From positions 57,930-121,929 of the IMG/VR virus record IMGVR_UViG_3300045988_084596: 64,000 nt of DNA. The stretch is one strand, 5' to 3'. Positions 17,756 to 46,100 of this stretch are shown one piece after another. How positions within the stretch are numbered: the stretch's first letter is position 1; each line of letters begins with the position of its first letter. Both the position numbers and the translations under genes were made by a program. The notes beneath the pieces are model-generated. The model was not told where the DNA came from and made no database searches. It saw nothing but the letters and a program-made list of their open reading frames with translations. This DNA comes from a virus.

Positions 17756-17875
17756 CCGAATATGCCGAAGATACTTTCATCCGTCGGGGAAGAAGAAGAG
17801 AAAGGTGAGAAGCGCAACTCAGCATAAAAATGTGCATTATCCCGGAGTGGTGGAATTGGCAGACACAGGGGACTT

Positions 17876-18664
17876 TGATGTATTCTATCCACGTAAAATA
17901 TGGATACTACTATGCAATAATAGTAGAGAGTGCCTAAGAGGAAACTCTTAGAGTAGAGGCTGGCTAAAACGGCGAAGGCGAATACAGAACGCCGTGCTAA
18001 GTTTCTTTGGGCAGACTCATTTAAGTGGAATACACTATTTTTCATATATAATGAAAGGTGGTAGACTTAAATGAGAAAATATGATAAAGAGTGGCTTCAA
18101 GAATTATGTTCTTCAAGTTATTCTTATGCGGAAGTTTTAATTAAAGCTGGTCGTAAGATTGGCGGAGGCGCGCAACAAACCTTAAAAAAGAAGATTGTTG
18201 AGTATGGAATTGATGTTTCACACTTCACAGGGTAGAGATGGTATGATGCTCCAGGGAAAGAGTGTAATTTAAAGGGGCAAGATAGAGAAAAATATTCTCT
18301 GAACGAAGTTTTTGTGAAAGATAGTCCAGTTACTCAAAAGGTTCTTAGAGGTTATGTTGAAAGGCACAATGTTTTAGAATATAAGTGTCAACAATGCGGA
18401 TGTGACGGTCATTGGCAAGATGGAATAATTGCCTTAGAAATTGACCATATAGATGGAGATAACACCAATAATGAAAAAACTAATCTTCGCTATTTATGTC
18501 CAAATTGTCATGCTTTAACAGAAACTTACCGAGGAAGAAACAAAGCCCTAAAGAATAAATGTGTAGAGAGTATACACCAGCTACCTAAGTCTGAATAAGA
18601 TATGGTAAAGACGTACTCCAGACTACAACACAGAAATGTGGCTATGGTGACATAGAGTAGTAAG
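17876..18664 (+). mobile_element. group I intron in tRNA-Leu(TAA) carrying an HNH homing-endonuclease ORF
   Basis: Bounded by the tRNA-Leu exons. Contains ORF 18071-18598. Terminal G present. The intron RNA core was not modelled. Confidence 0.6.
18071..18598 (+). CDS. HNH homing endonuclease (intron-encoded), one in-frame TAG
   Basis: ATG 18071 after GAAAGGTGG. CQQCGC...HIDGD...NLRYLCPNCH HNH motif. The frame is continuous from 18071 through a TAG at ~18233 into track ORF 18314-18598. Confidence 0.7.
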
Positions 18665-18734
18665 AAAATCCCCTGGGAGCAATCTCGTACGGGTTCGAGT
18701 CCCGTCTCCGGGACCAAACAATTCTTTTATATAT

Positions 18735-19266
18735 GGGTCAGTAAAGTGCTAAAGTAGACACCCCGGTCTGTGTTAAATTCCTACTTAGGAGGATATTAAT
18801 GGTCATTACAAACAATCAGTAGAAAGGAAATGCTGGTCTATCTTTAGCAATAGGATACTTTGGTTCTAATGGATACACTGTATCAGTCCCACTGAATGAT
18901 ACTCAATGGTATGATTTAGTTATTGAAAAAGATGGAGTTTTCCAAACAGTTTAGTGCAAATTTACATCATCGAAAACTGGAGAAATTAATCTAAAATCCG
19001 CAGGTGGAACTAAAGGAAATGTTTATGATTCGATACTTAACCATCCTTTAGACTTGTTGTTTTGCGCTAATCAAGATATGAATATGTTTGTAATTCCAAT
19101 GAACGATTTGATTCAAGCTGGAAATGTAAAATCAATAACTTTGAGAACAACCAGTGCCCCAAATTGTAAATTGGATACCAGTAAATACTTAGTTCGAATC
19201 TAAGATTTAACTCCAAAAACCGGTGCTTTCGAGCTCGAGTGGGTGCGATTCCCTCCTGGCCCACCA
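18735..19266 (+). tRNA. candidate split tRNA (5' part ~18735-18775, 3' part ~19204-19266) interrupted by a ~430-nt insertion encoding a PD-(D/E)xK nuclease
   Basis: 3' end GTGGG-TGCGATT-CCCTC T arm, acceptor 3' strand CTGGCCC, A, CCA. Upstream GGGTCAG pairs with it (one G-U). Candidate anticodon stem CCGGT (18763) / ACCGG (19219). Type II-like variable region. Exact intron borders were not resolved. Confidence 0.35.
18799..19203 (+). CDS. PD-(D/E)xK-family nuclease (Hjc/Holliday-junction-resolvase-like), 2 in-frame TAG
   Basis: ATG 18799 after TAGGAGGATATTA. GNAGLSLAIGYF...YDLVIEKDG...Q-CKF matches the D...E-x-K nuclease core. Two in-frame TAG. Confidence 0.55.
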
Positions 19267-19295
19267 CATCTAACAATAGGAAAGGAAGTAAATAG

Positions 19296-21665: not shown

Positions 21666-22727
21666 ATGGCCAATGAATTAAAAACTAGAATCCAACTTAG
21701 ACATGATACCGAGGAAAATTGGACTTCAGTTAAGGACTCCTTTATTCCTCTCGTTGGAGAGGCTTGTCTTACCACTGATGGCGAGAATAAAGGAAAAGTA
21801 AAATATGGTGATGGAACAAGCACCTGGGGTTAGTTAGAATATTCTGGTGGAAAAGATATTGTAGAAGTTGATTCATCTATTGTAAAATTTGATGATGATT
21901 TTACATTTACCTATACTTTTGGTAAATATGCTCCTGGAGGAGATGGATCTGTTAATATTCCCGCGACTGGAAAAACATTAGATCAATTACTGCTAGATGC
22001 TTTTGCGGAAGAAAAAAATCCTACTATCACACAACCTTCTGTTAGTATTTCCTCTAGTCAAATGAAAGCATATGAAGTGGGCACTAATGTAACTCCAACT
22101 TATACTGCAACTTTAAATAAAGGATCTTATCAATATGGCCCCGATACTGGAATTACAGCAACCGGTTGGAGCGTTCAATTTGATGAAGAAACAAAAACAG
22201 AAGCTACTGGAACTTTCTCTGAAATTCAAGTTGAAGATGCTACTAATTTAAAGATTACAGCAACAGCTAATTATGAGAATGGAGCTATTCCTGTTACAAA
22301 TCTTGGTTCTGAATATGTAGAAGGATAGATTAAAGCTGGATCTAAGTCTAATAGCACAGGAGCTATTACTGGATATCGCTAGATTTTTTATGGAGTTAAT
22401 AATTCTACAAATCCTTTAACTAGCGCGATTATTCGTTCTTTAACAGCAAGCAATAAAGCGGCAGCCGCAATGACTATTAATAGCATTAAAGCAAAAAGTG
22501 ATACTAAGAGAATTATTATCGCAGTTCCTCAATCTTCTGGGCTTAAAGTTACCGCAGCTAATATTACTTCTAGTTTGAACGCAGATGTAACTTCTAGCTA
22601 TGTAAAGCAAGGACCAGTGCAAGTAGAAGGAGCAAATGGATTTACCGCGGTTCCTTATGATGTATTCGTTTATCAACCTGCTTCCATTGATCCAACTGAG
22701 GATCATAAGGTTGTAATTGGAAAGTAA
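21666..22727 (+). CDS. tail fibre protein (353 aa), 3 in-frame TAG
   Basis: ATG 21666 after AAGGAGG. N-terminal RIQLRHDTEENW...KYGDGTSTWG motif. One frame links track ORFs 22062-22328 and 22470-22727. Confidence 0.6.
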
Positions 22728-22744
22728 GGAAGGAGGAACAAATA

Positions 22745-23917
22745 ATGGCAGTAATTAACAAAGATATTGCATATATGGCGTTACCTCTGAGTATTCGTAG
22801 AGGAAATCCTTTCCCTATTGATGAATATTCAGTATGGTATGATATGGAAGAATTAACAACATATGCTCAATCTAGTCCTGTAGCATATGTTGGTTAGGTA
22901 GTTACCTTAGTTAATGAAGAAGAAAATACAGTTGAAGCGTATATGATTCAAAATGCTGCTGGCAATTTAATGAAATTGGCTTCAACTACTGCTTCTGGTG
23001 ATTTAACGAAAGATGTTTTAGAGCTTCAAGGAAAAGTTTCCGCATTAGAAACCTCTGTTGGTACCAAAGAAGAAGAAAGTTCAATAACAGCTTCTAATCT
23101 TTGGGCAGCCATTGAGGAAGTTAAAGCAGCTTATGAAGCAGCTGATAGTTCTATTAATGGAAAATTTAATGATTATTATAATAAAACAGAAGCAGATTCT
23201 AAGATTGACCAAAAAATTGCTACTGCAATAAGTTCAACTTATAAACCTGCTGGTTCCATTATGTTTAGTTTCCTTCCTACACTTGGAGCTGATCAAGAGG
23301 GAAAAGTATATAATATTATAGATGCTTTCACCACTACTGAAGACTTCGTTGAAGGAGCCGATAATAAATATCCAGCTGGAACTAATGTAGTATGTATTGA
23401 CACTGATGATGCTGGAACTTACAAATGGGATGTTCTTGCGGGATTTGTAGATTTAAGTGGATACGAAACTACAAGTAGTGTAGATACTAAGTTAGCTAAT
23501 AAAGTCGACAAAGTAGAAGGATCATCTTTAGTTCAAGACACTCTAATTGCTAAATTATAGGGTTTAGCAGAAATCAAAGGAGTTAGTGATGAATTAGAAA
23601 TCGATCCTGATGATAAAATTCTTGGTGTAAAAGCGATTGCGTAGGAGAAAATTACTGGTCTTCCCGCAGCTTTAGCAGAGAAGATTAAAAGTATAACCGT
23701 AGGAACTACTCCTCTTTAGGTTAGCAATGGCGCAGTTACTATTCCTATTGCTACAGCAGAAGCTCTCGGTGTAGTAAAAAGCACTAATGATGAAAATGGT
23801 GTTGCTATTACAGGCGATGGAACTATGATTGTCAATAATATAAATATAGAAAAAATTACTTAGACTCCTGGTACAGAGCTTATCTTAAATGGCGGAGATG
23901 CTACTGTTAGTGAATAA
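22745..23917 (+). CDS. tail fibre protein (390 aa), 5 in-frame TAG
   Basis: ATG 22745 after GGAAGGAGGAACAAATA. One frame through track ORF 22943-23560 to TAA 23915. Shares a ~90-aa module (SSTYKPAGS...KWDVLAGFVDLS) with the next gene. Confidence 0.55.
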
Positions 23918-23942
23918 AAATCAACTTGGAGGAAGATAAATA

Positions 23943-25280
23943 ATGGCTACAACTTTTAATACAAGAATCCAATTAAAATATGACACTTATGAAAATTGGA
24001 ATACCAATAACCCCACTCTCCTAAAAGGAGAAATGGCGGTTGTTGAAGTTCCTGTTGAAACTGGAGTTGCTCAAAATGAGCCTACCTATTTGTTAAAAAT
24101 CGGTGATGGTGAATCGGATTTTAAAACTTTAAAATGGGTAAGCGGGACGGCCGCAGATGTTTATACTTGGGCTAAAGCGGCAAGTAAACCAACTTATGCA
24201 GCGACTGAAATTACCGGACTTGAAGATTTTATCGGAGAAAAAATTCAAGATACCGATACACAATATTAGATTGTTAAAAATGGAGATATGGGCTTTAAGC
24301 TTCAATCTAGACCAAAAACTGGCGGATCTTGGACAGATGTAAGCACTATTGCTCTGACCGCTCCCACTTATAATTTAGTCGAAGGGACTACTAATGGTAC
24401 TGTAAAATTTGGAATTACTGGTTCTGAAAAAGAAGTAAAAGTTCATGGACTTGGATCAGCAGCTTATACTGAATCTAGCGCTTATGATGCAGCTGGTAGC
24501 GCAGATACAGCAAAAAGCGAAGCTATCGATGAAGCTGCTAGTGCCACCGATGAAAAAATTGCAGCTCTAAAAATCAATGAATATGCAAAAACCACAGAAG
24601 TAGATTCTAAAATTGGAGCTGCAAAAACAGAGCTAATTGGTGAAGGAAGTGGCTCTTCTACTACTATTAAAGGTGCTTATGATGAAGCTAAAACCTATAC
24701 TGATTAGCAAATTGCCGCTAGAATTTCCTCTACTTATAAAGCAGGAGGATCTGTTGCATTTGCTTCTCTGCCAGAACTAACTGCAACAGAAGAAGGAAAA
24801 GTTTATAACATTCTTGATAAATTCACTACTACAGACGATTTCGTAGAAGGTTCCGGAAAGAGCTATCCTGCTGGCACTAATATTGTTTGTATAGATGTAG
24901 GAGAAGAAGAATTTAAGTGGGATGTTTTAGCTGGAATGGTAGATCTTTCAGCATATGATACAGCAGAGACAACTCAGGGAAAAATTGATTCCGCTAAGCA
25001 AGAGGCCAAAAACTACGCAGATTCTAAAGTTAACGCTTTAGATAAAGAAGATTCAGCCGTAGAAAATCAATTTGTAACTGCGGTATCTGAAGTCGATGGT
25101 ATCATTAGCGTAACTCGTACTCAGCCTACCATGGAGAATATCAACGGGTTGCCTGCGGCTCTTGCTAAAAAAGCTAATGATGGAGATTTAGCACTCGTTG
25201 CTAAAAGTGGAAAGATTGATGATTTAACTTAGACTGCTACAATTATTTTTAATTGTGGAAGCTCTAGCACAGTAATGTAA
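23943..25280 (+). CDS. tail fibre protein (445 aa), 3 in-frame TAG
   Basis: ATG 23943 after GGAGGAAGATAAATA. N-terminal RIQLKYDTYENW...KIGDGESDFKTLKW motif. One frame links track ORFs 23943, 24288 and 24936. Confidence 0.6.
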
Positions 25281-26730: not shown

Positions 26731-26806
26731 TGCGGAGTAGCGTAATGGTTTAGCGCAGGGGTCTCTAAAACCTCGGGAGTGGGTTCGAATCCCACCTCCG
26801 CTGCCA
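26731..26806 (+). tRNA. amber suppressor tRNA (anticodon CTA), Gln-like
   Basis: D arm GCGT-AATGGTTTA-GCGC, anticodon stem GGGGT/ACCTC with loop CTCTAAA (CTA at 26765-26767), T arm GTGGG-TTCGAAT-CCCAC, acceptor 3' CTCCGCT, G73, CCA. U1·U72 mismatch. The 3' acceptor/discriminator resembles the two tRNA-Gln genes. Confidence 0.65.
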
Positions 26807-43924: not shown

Positions 43925-44656
43925 ATGAGCATATACGCAGTTAGCGATCTTCATGGTATGTATGAGCTATATCAAAAAATTAGTGACTTTCTAAAGCCAG
44001 AAGATAAAGTTTATTGTCTAGGAGATTGCGGCGATCGAGGTCCGCGGTCTTGGGAAACTATTAAAGCGGTCGCGTCGGATCCGCGTTTTATCTATATTAA
44101 AGGTAATCACGAAGATATGCTTGTTAAAGCTATGAAAGATTATATTAAATATGAAACATATGGAGGAGGTCATTTTGATCTTCTCTGTTGGAATGGAGGA
44201 GCTTCTACTTTTAATGGATGGATTAATGATGGAGCTAAGTCTGGATGGTATCACTATCTAAGAAAATTGCCCCTATATCTTGAATATAAGAATAAAAATG
44301 GAATAACCATTATGCTTTGTCATGCGGGTTTTACTCCTGCAAAAGAACCATTCCCAGCAAACGAGGATTTGCTATGGGATAGAGAGCATATCTATGATAC
44401 TACCGAAGGTGAAGGAATTTGCGTTCATGGCCATACTCCAATTTCAGAATACTTAATTCTAAGATTAGATAATGCGAATAATTTTCTACCGCCAGATAGA
44501 CAATTCTCTTACTCATATAATGGTGGAGCTTTATGGTATTGTGATAATCATAAAGTTGATATTGACTGTTGCAGTTATATGTCTGGAAAAACTGTTCTTC
44601 TAAATTTGGATACTTTCGACGAACACATCTTTACTGTTGATAAGGAGGATGAATAA
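43925..44656 (+). CDS. PPP-family serine/threonine protein phosphatase (lambda-phosphatase-like)
   Basis: DLHG ... GDCGDRG ... GNHE motifs in order. Confidence 0.6.
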   Translation: MSIYAVSDLHGMYELYQKISDFLKPEDKVYCLGDCGDRGPRSWETIKAVASDPRFIYIKGNHEDMLVKAMKDYIKYETYGGGHFDLLCWNGGASTFNGWINDGAKSGWYHYLRKLPLYLEYKNKNGITIMLCHAGFTPAKEPFPANEDLLWDREHIYDTTEGEGICVHGHTPISEYLILRLDNANNFLPPDRQFSYSYNGGALWYCDNHKVDIDCCSYMSGKTVLLNLDTFDEHIFTVDKEDE

Positions 44657-44657
44657 T

Positions 44658-45503
44658 ATGAATGACCAGCTAGGCGCTCGCATGAAAGAGTTCTATGAGC
44701 AAATTCCAAAAACTCGACTTGTGCGTAGAACACCTGTAGCAATTAGAATTGATGGAAAAGCATTTCATACCTTTACTAAAGGTTTTAGAAAACCATTTGA
44801 TGCGGTATTGACTTCGGCTATGCAAGAAACAATGAAATATTTATGTGAAAATATCCAAGGATGTGTTCTTGGATATACTCAAAGCGATGAAATAACTCTA
44901 ATTCTTGTTGACTATAAAAAATTAAATAGCGACGCATGGTTTGATTATGAAGTTCAAAAAATGTGTTCTGTAGCAGCGTCCATGGCAACAATGATTTTTA
45001 ATAAGGTGTTTCGTTCAGCTATTGAAAGATATGATATTGGTTGGAAAAATTCTTTAACTCCTCAGGGCGTAGAAATTCAACTTGAGCATCAAGAATATAT
45101 GAGAACTTTACGGATAGCAAACGCAAGAGGGGCTATGTTTGATGCTCGTGTTTTCAATATTCCGAAAGAAGAAGTAACAAATCTAATTTATTGGCGCCAA
45201 TTAGATGCTATTAGAAATTCTATTCAAATGGTTGGACAAGCGAATTTTTCTCATAGTGAACTTCAAGGTAAATGTAGTAGTGAAATTTTAGAAATGCTTA
45301 TTTCTCAAAAAGGAATAGATTGGAATGAATTGCCCGTCTATTTACAAAGAGGTTCTTGTTGCATAAAAGACTGCGAAGAGACCGAAAGAGAGGATGGTTC
45401 AATCCATTTTAAACATTATTGGTTCGTCGATCTCAATATTCCTATTTTTAAGGAAGAAGGTAGACTTTATATCGAAGACCTCATTCAACCAGTCGAATTT
45501 TGA
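44658..45503 (+). CDS. Thg1-like protein (tRNA-His guanylyltransferase family, 3'-5' nucleotidyltransferase)
   Basis: AIRIDGKAFHTF matches Thg1 RLDGRNFHRF. RKPFD matches AKPND. GYTQSDEITLIL matches YGQSDEYSFVF. Start ATG 44658 after AAGGAGGA. Confidence 0.65.
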   Translation: MNDQLGARMKEFYEQIPKTRLVRRTPVAIRIDGKAFHTFTKGFRKPFDAVLTSAMQETMKYLCENIQGCVLGYTQSDEITLILVDYKKLNSDAWFDYEVQKMCSVAASMATMIFNKVFRSAIERYDIGWKNSLTPQGVEIQLEHQEYMRTLRIANARGAMFDARVFNIPKEEVTNLIYWRQLDAIRNSIQMVGQANFSHSELQGKCSSEILEMLISQKGIDWNELPVYLQRGSCCIKDCEETEREDGSIHFKHYWFVDLNIPIFKEEGRLYIEDLIQPVEF

Positions 45504-45539
45504 GACGCATAGAATCTTTTGAAATTATTATAAAAATAT

Positions 45540-45581
45540 AATATAATATATATAGAAAGTTAAGGAATGGAGGAAAGCAGT
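45540..45581 (+). promoter_or_regulatory. consensus promoter + leader
   Basis: TATAATATAATATATATAGAAAGTTAAGGAATGGAGGAAAGCAGT then ATG. Confidence 0.5.
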
Positions 45582-46100
45582 ATGACTATCGAAGTAAAAG
45601 TCATGGTTGGTATACCTGGTAGTGGGAAGTCAACTTGGGCTAATAAAGAAGCCGAACTTCTTGAAATGGATGGCTTTCATACTGCTATTATTTCTCGCGA
45701 TGTGATAAGAGAAAGTTTCATTGGAGATAAGGATTATTTCTCGCGAGAAAATGAAGTATTTGAAGAGTTCGTTCGACAAATTAACGAGTGCCTTGAAATT
45801 GGGATTGACTACATCTTTGTTGATGCTACTCATATCTCTCAAGGATCAAGAGCCAAGTTATTAGGAAGGTTGCGGCCGGACGGGAAGACTGGACTTAGTT
45901 TTGAAGTTTGTGATTGCGGGATTGATACTTGTATAGCCCGCAATAACTTGAGAAAGGGATTTTCCAAAGTACCCGATTCCGCGATTAGAAAGATGGCTAG
46001 AGGTTTTAGACCTCCCACTCCCGCAGAATTTAAACTCTACAAGTATGGCTTTAAGGATGTAAAAATCAATCATCATAACATGGAGGAGGGAGATAAATGA
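45582..46100 (+). CDS. polynucleotide 5'-kinase (P-loop)
   Basis: Walker A GIPGSGKST. ~170 aa, T4 Pnk kinase-domain-like. Confidence 0.55.
   Translation: MTIEVKVMVGIPGSGKSTWANKEAELLEMDGFHTAIISRDVIRESFIGDKDYFSRENEVFEEFVRQINECLEIGIDYIFVDATHISQGSRAKLLGRLRPDGKTGLSFEVCDCGIDTCIARNNLRKGFSKVPDSAIRKMARGFRPPTPAEFKLYKYGFKDVKINHHNMEEGDK

What the first reader, a model, noticed from the sequence alone, without database searches (positions are those of the whole stretch)
17841..18716. tRNA-Leu(UAA) split by a group I intron at the canonical U34/A35 site, with an amber-containing HNH homing endonuclease inside
The two exons reconstruct a complete type II tRNA-Leu. 5' exon: acceptor CCCGGAG, D arm, anticodon stem GGGGA plus CUU. 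3' exon: AAAA plus UCCCC, 15-nt variable arm, T arm, acceptor CUCCGGG (exact complement of CCCGGAG), A73, CCA. The anticodon loop becomes CUU^AAAA with the intron between anticodon positions 34 and 35, the site used by the ancient cyanobacterial/plastid tRNA-Leu(UAA) intron. The intron is 789 nt, ends in G, follows a U, and carries HNH ORF 18071-18598, which needs TAG read-through. Self-splicing tRNA introns occur in a few phages but are rare. Here the homing endonuclease's expression also depends on the phage's own suppressor tRNA.
Basis: partly seen in the sequence, partly recalled or inferred. Interest (0 to 1): 0.7.

Follow-up and report, generated by a model that had tools for sequence, protein, structure and literature searches.

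The report
Group I intron splitting phage tRNA-Leu
A phage tRNA-Leu(UAA) gene is interrupted, at the classic anticodon site, by a mobile self-splicing-type (group I) intron that carries an HNH homing endonuclease readable only if TAG is decoded as glutamine; the kind is known, but it had not been documented in phage tRNA genes and this lineage builds one core helix in an unusual way.

Summary
Near-identical phage contigs carry the uninterrupted gene (…GGGGACTT|AAAATCCCC…), so the insert is exactly 17876-18664 (789 nt), between U34 and A35. The joined exons give an 87-nt tRNA-Leu(UAA).

Rfam's Intron_gpI model does not hit the window. An ORF-less homologue hits it full length but below threshold (25.5 bits, gathering score 50).

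At least 31 distinct homologous introns sit at the same site in phage tRNA(UAA) genes. The same family is in chromosomal tRNA-Leu(UAA) genes of Ruminococcus and other Oscillospiraceae. Covariation supports P1, P2, P3, P4, P6, P7 (pseudoknot), P8 and P9.

One departure: there is no P5 hairpin. Intron nt +4 to +10 pair with the loop closed by P4, and all 7 pairs covary.

The HNH ORF (18071-18598) lies in the P6 loop and runs into the core. Its TAG codon is CAG or CAA in sister copies. The window has a Gln-like suppressor tRNA.

The intron is 98.4% identical to a copy whose exons are only 78.7% identical, which indicates recent homing. Splicing and cleavage activity are inferred.

The neighbouring tRNA-Tyr-like gene carries a different, tRNA-shaped insert with a PD-(D/E)XK endonuclease.

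The parts
17841..17875 (+). tRNA-Leu(UAA) exon 1: acceptor 5' strand, D arm, anticodon stem 5' strand, then C32 U33 U34
   Evidence: Identical to the 5' part of the uninterrupted gene in L001/L002.
17876..18664 (+). Group I intron, 789 nt. It follows U34 and ends in the terminal G at 18664.
   Evidence: Boundaries come from the intron-less alleles. Family membership by nhmmer. Covariation.
17872..17876 (+). P1 5' strand: exon A31 C32 U33 U34 plus intron U+1. U34 (17875) forms the U.G wobble at the 5' splice site.
   Evidence: helix 1: the splice-site pair is UG in 27 of 28 sequences and CG in 1.
17879..17885 (+). UGUAUUC, 5' strand of the long-range helix that takes the place of P5 (intron nt +4 to +10)
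   Evidence: 7 of 7 pairs covary, 91% of cells paired, covariation score 0.90-0.92 against 0.23-0.26 for shuffles.
17887..17926 (+). Two hairpins inside the P1 loop (AUCCA...UGGAU at 17887-17905; CUACUAU...AUAGUAG at 17907-17926). They are absent in a sub-class of the family.
   Evidence: both stems change compensatorily between members, by inspection. Members such as L008 lack them.
17927..17931 (+). Internal guide sequence AGAGU (P1 3' strand), followed by GCC and P2 as in the Anabaena and Azoarcus tRNA introns
   Evidence: GAG is invariant. The comparison with Anabaena and Azoarcus rests on my recollection of their sequences.
17934..17951 (+). P2 hairpin CUAAGAG-GAAA-CUCUUAG with a GAAA tetraloop
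   Evidence: all 7 pairs show double changes.
17959..17963 (+). P3 5' strand GCUGG; J3/4 CUAAA follows at 17964-17968
   Evidence: helix 3: 100% paired, 4 of 5 pairs covary.
17969..17995 (+). P4 (ACGGCG at 17969-17974 with CGCCGU at 17990-17995) closing a 15-nt loop, AAGGCGAAUACAGAA, instead of a P5 hairpin. GAAUACA (17980-17986) is the 3' strand of the long-range helix.
18003..18555 (+). P6: UUCUUUGGGC (18003-18012) pairs with GCCCUAAAGAA (18545-18555). The ORF cassette sits in its loop.
   Evidence: helix 5: 6 of 6 outer pairs covary. ORF-less members have a 17-35 nt P6 hairpin here.
18016..18075 (+). Hairpin that buries the Shine-Dalgarno sequence (AAAGGUGG) and the AUG of the HNH ORF
   Evidence: -21.3 kcal/mol, z = -4.6, 0 of 200 shuffles as stable. 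Any role in translation control is inferred.
18071..18598 (+). HNH homing endonuclease ORF, 175 codons, with TAG at 18233-18235. Its last ~17 codons overlap P6 3', J6/7, P7 5', P3 3' and P8 5'. The stop codon UAA (18596-18598) lies in the P8 loop.
18568..18573 (+). P7 5' strand GAGUAU
   Evidence: helices 6 and 7: pair 201/267 is CG in 11, GC in 10 and GU in 7 sequences. Two pairs are invariant.
18577..18581 (+). P3 3' strand CCAGC
   Evidence: helix 3.
18582..18607 (+). P8, with the sequence of an 11-nt GAAA-tetraloop receptor (CCUAAG at 18584-18589, UAUGG at 18601-18605)
   Evidence: helices 8 and 9 covary and the motif is largely conserved. Docking of the L2 loop is inferred.
18613..18618 (+). 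P7 3' strand GUACUC. With 18568-18573 it crosses P3, forming the core pseudoknot.
18622..18664 (+). P9 three-way junction: ACUAC/GUAGU, P9a CACA-GAAA-UGUG, P9b CUAUG-GUGA-CAUAG, then AAG ending in the terminal G
   Evidence: helices 10-13. All 31 distinct family members end in G.
18665..18716 (+). tRNA-Leu(UAA) exon 2: A35 A36 A37 A38, anticodon stem 3' strand, 15-nt variable arm, T arm, acceptor 3' strand, A73, CCA
26731..26806 (+). Suppressor tRNA(CUA), needed to read the TAG codon of the HNH ORF. Acceptor stem and G73 resemble the window's tRNA-Gln(UUG).

Best explanation
This is a mobile group I intron of the bacterial tRNA type, inserted between U34 and A35 of the phage's only tRNA-Leu(UAA) gene.

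Splicing, as inferred from the structure:
1. In the precursor, the last exon bases ACUU plus intron U+1 pair with the guide AGAGU (17927-17931). This gives the U34.G wobble in P1.
2. The core folds as P3-P8, P4-P6 and P7-P9, with the P3/P7 pseudoknot.
3. The L2 GAAA loop can dock in the P8 receptor.
4. In place of a P5 hairpin, intron nt +4 to +10 pair with the loop closed by P4. This ties the 5' splice site to the P4-P6 domain.
5. A free guanosine attacks after U34. The freed exon then attacks after the terminal G (18664). The product is an 87-nt tRNA-Leu(UAA).

Homing, also inferred:
1. The HNH endonuclease encoded in the P6 loop is made in full only when TAG codon 55 is read as Gln by the phage suppressor tRNA.
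2. The enzyme cuts intron-less tRNA-Leu(UAA) genes of co-infecting relatives, and repair copies the intron in.

Shown here: junctions, secondary structure, protein domain, recoding and presence/absence polymorphism. Inferred: catalysis, timing of expression and the cleavage target.
For: - Exact junctions from the intron-less alleles L001 and L002.
- Joined exons give tRNA-Leu(taa).
- At least 31 distinct homologous introns at the same site. All end in G and 30 of 31 follow U.
- The ORF-less homologue L010 aligns to the whole Rfam Intron_gpI model (positions 1-253) at 25.5 bits, E 1.1e-4.
- Covariation over 57 pairs: 96.2% paired against 28-46% when partners are slid; 32 pairs have double changes; 0 of 500 shuffles reach this.
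- An independent RNAalifold run recovers P2, P3, P4, P6, P8 and P9.
- The P5-replacing helix: 7 of 7 pairs covary.
- HNH domain.
- TAG corresponds to CAG or CAA in sister copies, and TAG corresponds to CAG in the neighbouring ATPase gene.
- A Gln-like suppressor tRNA is present.
- The intron is 98.4% identical to the L011 copy while the exons are 78.7% identical, and it is absent from genomes 95-98% identical in the flanks.
- UUA and UUG make up 47% of Leu codons in the window, so a dead gene would be costly.
Against: - Rfam Intron_gpI gives no hit on the window at any threshold. ORF-less homologues do not reach the gathering score.
- No P10 pairing is evident.
- P1 is only 5 bp, and its loop of about 50 nt carries two hairpins and the P5-like strand, which is unusual.
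- The ORF runs about 50 nt into the core, so translation and folding compete.
- No splicing or expression data exist for this phage.
Confidence: 0.87

Rival explanations
1. Splicing-dead relic. The insert derives from a group I intron but no longer splices, so the phage tRNA-Leu(UAA) gene is a pseudogene and the host supplies the tRNA.
For: There is no experimental evidence of splicing. Rfam does not recognise the element. Phage tRNA genes are dispensable in principle. The family contains decayed ORFs, as in L012, L029 and L104.
Against: All core helices and the invariant joining segments are intact in the window copy. It is 98.4% identical to a copy in a different phage. The ORF is intact. 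The exons keep a perfect cloverleaf. UUA is the commonest Leu codon.
Confidence: 0.07
2. The TAG in the HNH ORF is a genuine stop. The endonuclease gene is then broken (54-aa product), the intron is immobile here, and no link to the suppressor exists.
For: In the standard code the ORF is split into 54-aa and 94-aa pieces. Decaying homing endonuclease genes are common.
Against: Apart from this codon, the reading frame has no stop codon. The identical TAG is kept in L011. The codon is CAG or CAA (Gln) in L016 and L024. There are 58 in-frame TAGs in 15 window ORFs, including one TAG/CAG pair with L001. A tRNA(CUA) is encoded 8 kb away.
Confidence: 0.08
3. Not a ribozyme. The insert is removed, if at all, by proteins, like the tRNA-shaped insert in the neighbouring tRNA-Tyr-like gene, or it is a bare endonuclease cassette.
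For: Two neighbouring tRNA-like genes carry inserts that are clearly not group I. The Rfam scan is negative.
Against: The non-coding parts (195 nt on the 5' side, about 100 nt on the 3' side) carry a covarying group I core with the P3/P7 pseudoknot. ORF-less members are 207-270 nt, the size of small tRNA group I introns.
Confidence: 0.03

Closest known systems
[quoted passage not shown] Anabaena/Nostoc PCC 7120)
   Same: Same host gene and the same insertion point between U34 and A35. A 3-5 bp P1 uses CUU with a GAG guide followed by (G)CC and a P2 with a GAAA loop. Small core, terminal G. Position 34/35 for tRNA-Leu is confirmed as the common site in PMC13011429.
   Different: The classic intron has a normal P5 hairpin and no ORF. 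Here P5 is replaced by a pairing of intron nt +4 to +10 with the P4 loop, P1 has a large structured loop, and an HNH gene sits in P6. Sequence-level relatedness to the cyanobacterial intron was not tested. Details of the Anabaena sequence are from my memory.
Azoarcus tRNA-Ile group I intron
   Same: Overall layout: guide sequence, then CC, then P2(GAAA), with a CCUAAG...UAUGG receptor in P8 for L2. CGGCG/CGCCG in P4 is identical. Very compact.
   Different: Azoarcus docks L9 into a receptor in a regular P5 hairpin; this family has no P5 hairpin. The host tRNA and insertion site differ. The comparison is from recalled sequence, not computed.
Synechocystis tRNA-fMet group I intron encoding I-Ssp6803I
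   Same: A bacterial tRNA group I intron that carries its own homing endonuclease aimed at the anticodon region of the tRNA gene (cited in PMC3984707 and PMC13011429).
   Different: That endonuclease is PD-(D/E)XK and the site is 33/34 of tRNA-fMet. Here the enzyme is HNH at 34/35 of tRNA-Leu. The PD-(D/E)XK family is present in the window, but in the neighbouring tRNA-Tyr-like gene, inside a non-group-I insert.
HNH-encoding tRNA-Leu(UAA) group I introns reported in Bacteroidota complete genomes (PMC13011429, 2026)
   Same: Same gene, an HNH endonuclease (PF01844), intron longer than 500 nt.
   Different: Those are reported from bacterial chromosomes. I could not compare sequences. Two 'Bacteroides/Alistipes' MAG contigs in my scan (L134, L130) hold this intron, and L134's ORF has an in-frame TAG, so it may be mis-binned phage DNA.
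Phage group I introns with homing endonucleases (T4 td/I-TevI, SPO1 and Bastille DNA polymerase HNH introns)
   Same: Phage-borne, with the endonuclease ORF looped out of a peripheral helix and overlapping the core, a start region buried in a hairpin, and homing between co-infecting phages.
   Different: All of those are in protein-coding genes. The review PMC3984707 states that no phage intron was then known in a tRNA gene.
Stop-codon-recoded intron endonuclease in Agate phages (Borges et al. preprint, 10.1101/2021.08.26.457843)
   Same: An intron homing endonuclease whose in-frame stop codons should delay its synthesis until the phage switches code.
   Different: That case uses TGA->Trp in an intron of an early protein gene. 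Here it is TAG->Gln, a single codon, in a tRNA intron.

Membership tests
Group I intron | 5' splice site after a U that forms a U.G wobble with the internal guide (P1) | tested here: met
   the splice-site pair is UG in 27 of 28 sequences and CG in 1. The GAG of the guide is invariant. The exon side cannot vary, so there is no covariation.
Group I intron | Intron ends in G (the terminal G) | tested here: met
   31 of 31 distinct introns end in G. In the window this is G18664.
Group I intron | Core helices P3-P8, P4-P6 and P7-P9 with the P3/P7 pseudoknot | tested here: met
   96.2% paired, 32 of 57 pairs have double changes, P3 and P7 both covary, 0 of 500 shuffles reach this. One search recovers the nested helices independently.
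Group I intron | P5 hairpin stacked on P4 | tested here: not met
   The loop closed by P4 is only 13-18 nt. In 23 of 26 distinct sequences it pairs with intron nt +4 to +10 instead.
Group I intron | Match to Rfam RF00028 at the gathering score (50 bits) | tested here: not met
   No hit on the window. No hit at the gathering score on four loci with ORF-less members. L010 gives 25.5 bits, E 1.1e-4, over the full model.
Group I intron | Guanosine-dependent self-splicing | not testable with these tools
   Needs an in vitro transcript with GTP and Mg2+.
Bacterial tRNA-Leu(UAA) intron lineage | Insertion between anticodon positions 34 and 35 of a tRNA with anticodon UAA | tested here: met
Bacterial tRNA-Leu(UAA) intron lineage | Assignment to subgroup IC3 by subgroup covariance models | not tested
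   Subgroup models are not available here. The resemblance to Azoarcus and Anabaena (guide-CC-P2 GAAA, P8 receptor) is by inspection only.
HNH homing endonuclease | HNH nuclease domain | tested here: met
   Pfam PF01844, 23.0 bits against a cut-off of 21.4. There are weak matches to the McrA HNH domain and to I-HmuI. CxxC...DH...N...CxxCH is visible in the sequence.
HNH homing endonuclease | Signs of mobility: presence/absence alleles and an intron far more similar than its exons | tested here: met
   intron 98.4% against exons 78.7% identical for window versus L011. L001 and L002 lack the intron.
HNH homing endonuclease | Cleavage of the intron-less allele | not testable with these tools
   Needs purified protein and a target plasmid.
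TAG-to-Gln recoded phage | Suppressor tRNA(CUA) plus in-frame TAG codons that align with Gln codons in relatives | tested here: met

The most novel reading that the evidence does not exclude
Three linked readings remain open.

1. This intron lineage, shared by gut phages and Oscillospiraceae chromosomes, may be a previously undescribed architecture of group I ribozyme. The P5 helix is not a hairpin. It is made by the strand just downstream of the 5' splice site pairing into the P4 loop, which adds a second pseudoknot that clamps the substrate helix to the catalytic core.

2. These may be the first documented group I introns in phage tRNA genes. They move between phages, and possibly between host chromosomes and phages, with three different endonuclease cargoes.

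3. The same tRNA array holds a second, apparently unknown kind of intervening sequence. It is a tRNA-shaped insert that ends in CCA and may be cut out by tRNA-processing enzymes.
Probability: 0.4. Interest if true: 0.75.

Novelty: new variant of a known kind. Interest (0 to 1): 0.58.

Why it matters
- It extends self-splicing tRNA introns, long treated as a bacterial and organellar feature, to phage tRNA arrays. A 2014 review noted that they were absent there.
- It shows that these introns are actively mobile among gut phages, with HNH (two lineages) and LAGLIDADG cargoes.
- It gives a clean natural example of a selfish endonuclease whose synthesis is tied by one codon to the phage's switch of genetic code.
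- The P5-replacing pseudoknot is supported by many independent compensatory changes. It is easy to test by mutation and rescue, and it bears on how small group I ribozymes position their substrate helix.
- Standard tools (ARAGORN, Rfam) miss these genes, so phage tRNA repertoires and codon-supply analyses are being under-called.

Tried and rejected
1. **Rfam Intron_gpI scans.** On the whole window, on 17550-18800 at E<=10 and on the 5' half alone, there was no hit. This was not taken as refutation, because the 560-nt P6 insert breaks the model and ORF-less relatives score only 25.5 bits.

2. **First hand-drawn fold.** I first took GGGCAGACUC at 18010-18019 as P7, by resemblance to T4 td and Twort. 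I rejected this once ORF-less homologues showed that stretch to be part of the ORF cassette, with the true J6/7-P7 inside the ORF's 3' end.

3. **Local hairpin GUGUA/UACAC.** RNAalifold predicted it. It has no double changes and conflicts with the covarying P7, so I treated it as an artefact of pseudoknot-free folding.

4. **BLAST against cultured phages.** Only HNH fragments and tRNAs matched.

5. **Bulge-helix-bulge reading of the neighbouring inserts.** The sequences do not fit that motif.

6. **Brute-force excision of the 47-nt insert in the tRNA at 17636-17755.** ARAGORN accepted hundreds of solutions, so the test was uninformative.

7. **Literature searches.** Searches for phage tRNA group I introns, for a P5 pseudoknot and for tRNA-shaped introns found nothing specific. 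Absence from this library is not proof of novelty.

Full report
**Observation**

- Exon 1 is 17841-17875 and ends GGGGACUU.
- Exon 2 is 18665-18716. It begins AAAAUCCCC and carries a 15-nt variable arm, the T arm, an acceptor strand exactly complementary to CCCGGAG, A73 and CCA.
- ARAGORN finds 29 tRNAs in the window, but none between 17463 and 20457 and no Leu(UAA).
- On the joined exons ARAGORN returns an 87-nt tRNA-Leu(taa).

**Junctions**

An exact-pattern scan of IMG/VR with part of exon 1 found two contigs, L001 and L002, whose flanks are 95-98% identical to the window. They carry the uninterrupted gene ...GGGGACTT|AAAATCCCC.... The insert is therefore 17876-18664 (789 nt), with no freedom in either junction. 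It lies between U34 and A35.

**Is it a group I intron?**

Rfam Intron_gpI does not hit the window at the gathering score, at E<=10 on 17550-18800, or on the 5' half alone. I therefore looked for relatives.
- A pattern from the J3/4-P4 region found 15 and then 89 IMG/VR loci.
- Profile searches with the two non-coding halves confirmed about 40 loci.
- These hold 31 distinct introns. All lie between CUU and AAAA of a tRNA with anticodon UAA, all end in G, and 30 follow U.
- ORF-less members are 207-270 nt.
- One ORF-less member, L010, aligns to the whole Rfam model (positions 1-253) at 25.5 bits, E 1.1e-4. This is below the gathering score of 50.

I aligned 28 members with their large inserts trimmed (A1).
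- RNAalifold independently recovered the anticodon stem, P2, P3, P4, P6, P8 and the P9 three-way junction.
- Counting pairs for my full model, with P7 written as a pseudoknot, gave 96.2% paired cells against 28-46% when partners are slid.
- 32 of 57 pairs have changes on both sides, and 0 of 500 shuffles reach this.
- P3 (CG 16, UA 8, GC 4 at one pair) and P7 (CG 11, GC 10, GU 7) both covary. This is the defining pseudoknot of the group I core.
- Window coordinates of every helix are in the parts list.
- L2 is a GAAA loop, and P8 carries the CCUAAG...UAUGG receptor sequence.

**An unusual P5**

The loop closed by P4 is only 15 nt (17975-17989), so there is no P5 hairpin. Instead, intron nt +4 to +10 (UGUAUUC, 17879-17885) are complementary to GAAUACA (17980-17986).
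- Across the family the helix sequence changes many times while staying complementary. The 5' strands seen include UGUGUUU, UGUUAUC, UGUUAGC, UGUUUGC, CUUAGC, CUUGGC, CCCUGAU, UCCUGAU, UCCUAUC, CAUUGAC, UCUAAGC, UCUGAGC and CAUCCAA.
- In ungapped alignments all 7 pairs show double changes and 91% of cells are paired, even with three outliers included.
- The covariation score is 0.90-0.92, against 0.23-0.26 for shuffles and at most 0.21 for slid partners.
- The strand lies inside the P1 loop, two nucleotides after the splice site. In the window it is followed by two covarying hairpins and then the guide AGAGU.

I read this as P5 being formed by a second pseudoknot that tethers the 5' splice site to the P4-P6 domain. 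I found no description of it, but my literature access is limited.

**The ORF**

- 18071-18598 encodes 175 residues with an HNH domain: Pfam 23.0 bits against a cut-off of 21.4, with weak matches to the McrA HNH domain and to I-HmuI.
- It sits in the P6 loop. Its last ~17 codons overlap P6 3', J6/7, P7, P3' and P8, and the stop codon is in the P8 loop.
- The Shine-Dalgarno sequence and the AUG are buried in a hairpin (-21.3 kcal/mol, z = -4.6).
- Codon 55 is TAG (18233-18235). The 94-98% identical copies have TAG in L011 but CAG in L016; L017 also reads Gln there. The more distant L024 has CAA.
- The downstream ATPase gene has TAG where L001 has CAG.
- Fifteen window ORFs hold 58 in-frame TAGs.
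- The tRNA(CUA) at 26731-26806 shares its acceptor stem and G73 with the window's tRNA-Gln(UUG).

So TAG is read as Gln. Without suppression the product stops before the nuclease domain.

**Mobility and distribution**

- The window intron is 98.4% identical over 789 nt to that of L011, whose exons are only 78.7% identical. L001 and L002 lack it.
- Family members carry two HNH lineages in P6, and in L015 a LAGLIDADG_2 gene between P7 and P3'.
- The same family, ORF-less and with the same P5-replacing helix, is in tRNA-Leu(UAA) genes of many Ruminococcus, Oscillospiraceae and other Clostridia genomes. These include the R. callidus ATCC 27760 chromosome and R. flavefaciens FD-1.

**Literature**

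- A 2014 review states that all phage introns then known were in protein-coding genes, despite many phage tRNA genes (PMC3984707).
- A 2026 survey of complete bacterial genomes lists 34/35 as the usual tRNA-Leu site and reports HNH genes in tRNA-Leu(UAA) introns of Bacteroidota (PMC13011429).
- Recoded intron endonucleases were noted for TGA-recoded Agate phages (10.1101/2021.08.26.457843).

**Mechanism**

I infer guanosine-initiated self-splicing. It would restore the only tRNA able to read UUA and UUG, which together make up 47% of Leu codons in the window. I also infer late, suppressor-dependent synthesis of an HNH enzyme that homes the intron into intron-less relatives.
- Shown here: junctions, structure, protein domain, recoding and polymorphism.
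- Not shown: catalysis, timing of expression and the cleavage site.
- Rivals considered unlikely: a dead relic, a broken endonuclease gene, and protein-dependent removal. The reasons are given under each rival.

**Side findings**

The next gene, a tRNA-Tyr(GUA)-like gene at 18736-19268, is uninterrupted in L001 and L002. In the window it carries a 443-nt insert (18773-19215) between U35 and A36.
- The insert is not group I.
- It has the shape of a tRNA: a terminal 7-8 bp stem, a T arm CUUAG-UUCGAAU-CUAAG, a discriminator base and CCA at its very 3' end.
- A PD-(D/E)XK endonuclease ORF (PF11645, 55.4 bits, two TAGs) takes the place of the anticodon region.

A blind screen found small versions (51-112 nt) in Leu, Lys, Gly, Glu and Ile tRNAs of other phage loci.
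- Of 32,452 candidate inserts with any 3-nt tail, the only 6 whose removal restores a tRNA all end in CCA.
- Four endonuclease-bearing lineages show compensatory changes in the terminal stem.

This deserves its own study.

Noticed in passing
window 18736-19268 (insert 18773-19215; ORF 18800-19203): A tRNA-Tyr(GUA)-like gene, uninterrupted in L001/L002, is split between U35 and A36 by a 443-nt insert that is not group I. The insert is tRNA-shaped: terminal stem GUUAAAU/AUUUAAC, T arm CUUAG-UUCGAAU-CUAAG (19188-19204), discriminator U and CCA (19213-19215) as its last bases. It carries a PDDEXK_5 (I-Ssp6803I-type) endonuclease ORF with two in-frame TAGs. The junctions coincide with where RNase P and 3'-end processing would cut a tRNA. 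Neither ARAGORN nor Rfam calls the outer tRNA, even when uninterrupted; its T stem has a U.U mismatch.
   Followed up: partly
L004 2451-2501; L008(-) 4450-4517; L013(-) 2115-2226; L017(-) 5906-5966; L019 737-807; L030 1274-1342; L032 1343-1408; L033 3242-3298; L053(-) 2020-2079 and 5325-5387: A class of 51-112 nt tRNA-like inserts (7-bp acceptor-like stem, D-like hairpin, T arm with a GUUCAAAUC-type loop, N-CCA end) lies inside the anticodon loops of phage tRNA-Leu, Lys, Gly, Glu and Ile genes, at positions 32/33 to 36/37. In the control screen, all 6 of 32,452 candidates that restore a tRNA end in CCA. Two inserts are themselves called tRNA by Rfam (41 and 39.5 bits). I found no description in the literature searched.
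   Followed up: partly
L150-L189 (relatives of the window's PD-(D/E)XK ORF): This endonuclease family is tied to tRNA-Tyr(GUA) genes in phages. In some loci it is inside tRNA-shaped inserts with covarying terminal stems (L150, L158, L162, L186). In others it is free-standing just upstream of an intact tRNA-Tyr (L151-155, L160, L164, L171, L174, L176-178). In others it sits in the anticodon/variable region of a Tyr-like tRNA (L159, L165, L180, L185).
   Followed up: partly
window 17636-17755: A tRNA (Rfam 50.9 bits) with a 47-nt insert in the anticodon arm that forms two hairpins. It is conserved with small changes in L001/L002. It is too short for group I and does not end in CCA. The isotype and the way the insert is removed are unknown.
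   Followed up: partly
window 8612-8686 and 7989-8005, flanking ORF 8077-8598: A partial tRNA hit (33 bits) with an Asn-like CUGUUAA anticodon loop but an acceptor stem that does not pair. It lies next to an endonuclease-like ORF with 4 TAGs. A tRNA 5' fragment (GGGUCGGUAGCUCAG) lies upstream of the ORF. This may be a tRNA gene disrupted by a homing endonuclease gene.
   Followed up: no
window 26731-26806 and ORFs across the window: Suppressor tRNA(CUA) with a U1.U72 mismatch and G73, Gln-like. The 58 in-frame TAGs are concentrated in 15 ORFs: endonuclease-like genes at 5976-6923 (10 TAGs), 8077-8598 and 27915-28817; ORFs at 21666-25280 of unknown function (not scanned against Pfam); 50516-51925 (9 TAGs); and 59160-60071 (8 TAGs). 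The enzyme genes between 28854 and 49605 and at 51922-58511 have none. This fits code switching late in infection.
   Followed up: partly
window 14520-14850 and 14937-15335: A phage-encoded tmRNA (70.9 bits), followed by a free-standing LAGLIDADG endonuclease ORF with 3 TAGs.
   Followed up: no
window 28854-35813 and 43925-46651: A cluster of RNA-related genes: DUF2828/DUF7788 protein, major-vault-protein-like protein (MVP shoulder, 62 bits), RlaP-like nucleotidyltransferase (22.1 bits, just under cut-off), Thg1-like tRNA-His guanylyltransferase (101 bits), AAA_33 kinase and three metallophosphatases. No RtcB or Rnl-type RNA ligase was seen among the 20 ORFs scanned. An ATP-dependent DNA ligase lies at 57405-58511.
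   Followed up: partly
L010 7507-8092 (-), L053 3240-3847 (-): ROOL RNAs (290 and 341 bits) lie in the tRNA arrays of related phage contigs.
   Followed up: no
L069 (IMGVR_UViG_3300011989_000211): A family member whose 5' splice site follows C, not U (exon ...GCACUC|). This gives a C-G pair with the guide and an anticodon CAA after splicing. It also lacks the P5-replacing helix, as do L104 and L146.
   Followed up: no
L134 (Bacteroides MAG contig, 4.3 kb), L130 (Alistipes MAG contig, 5.5 kb): Both short contigs, binned as Bacteroidota, carry this tRNA-Leu intron. In L134 the HNH ORF has an in-frame TAG, so that contig is probably phage DNA mis-binned into a bacterial MAG. This may bear on reports of HNH-bearing tRNA-Leu introns in Bacteroidota.
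   Followed up: no
L006, L062, L072, L087, L093, L106, L075/L115: P6 of the intron: Several ORF-less members carry a conserved insert of about 95-130 nt in P6 (GGUGCUA...GGAACAGCC) that looks structured rather than like ORF debris.
   Followed up: no
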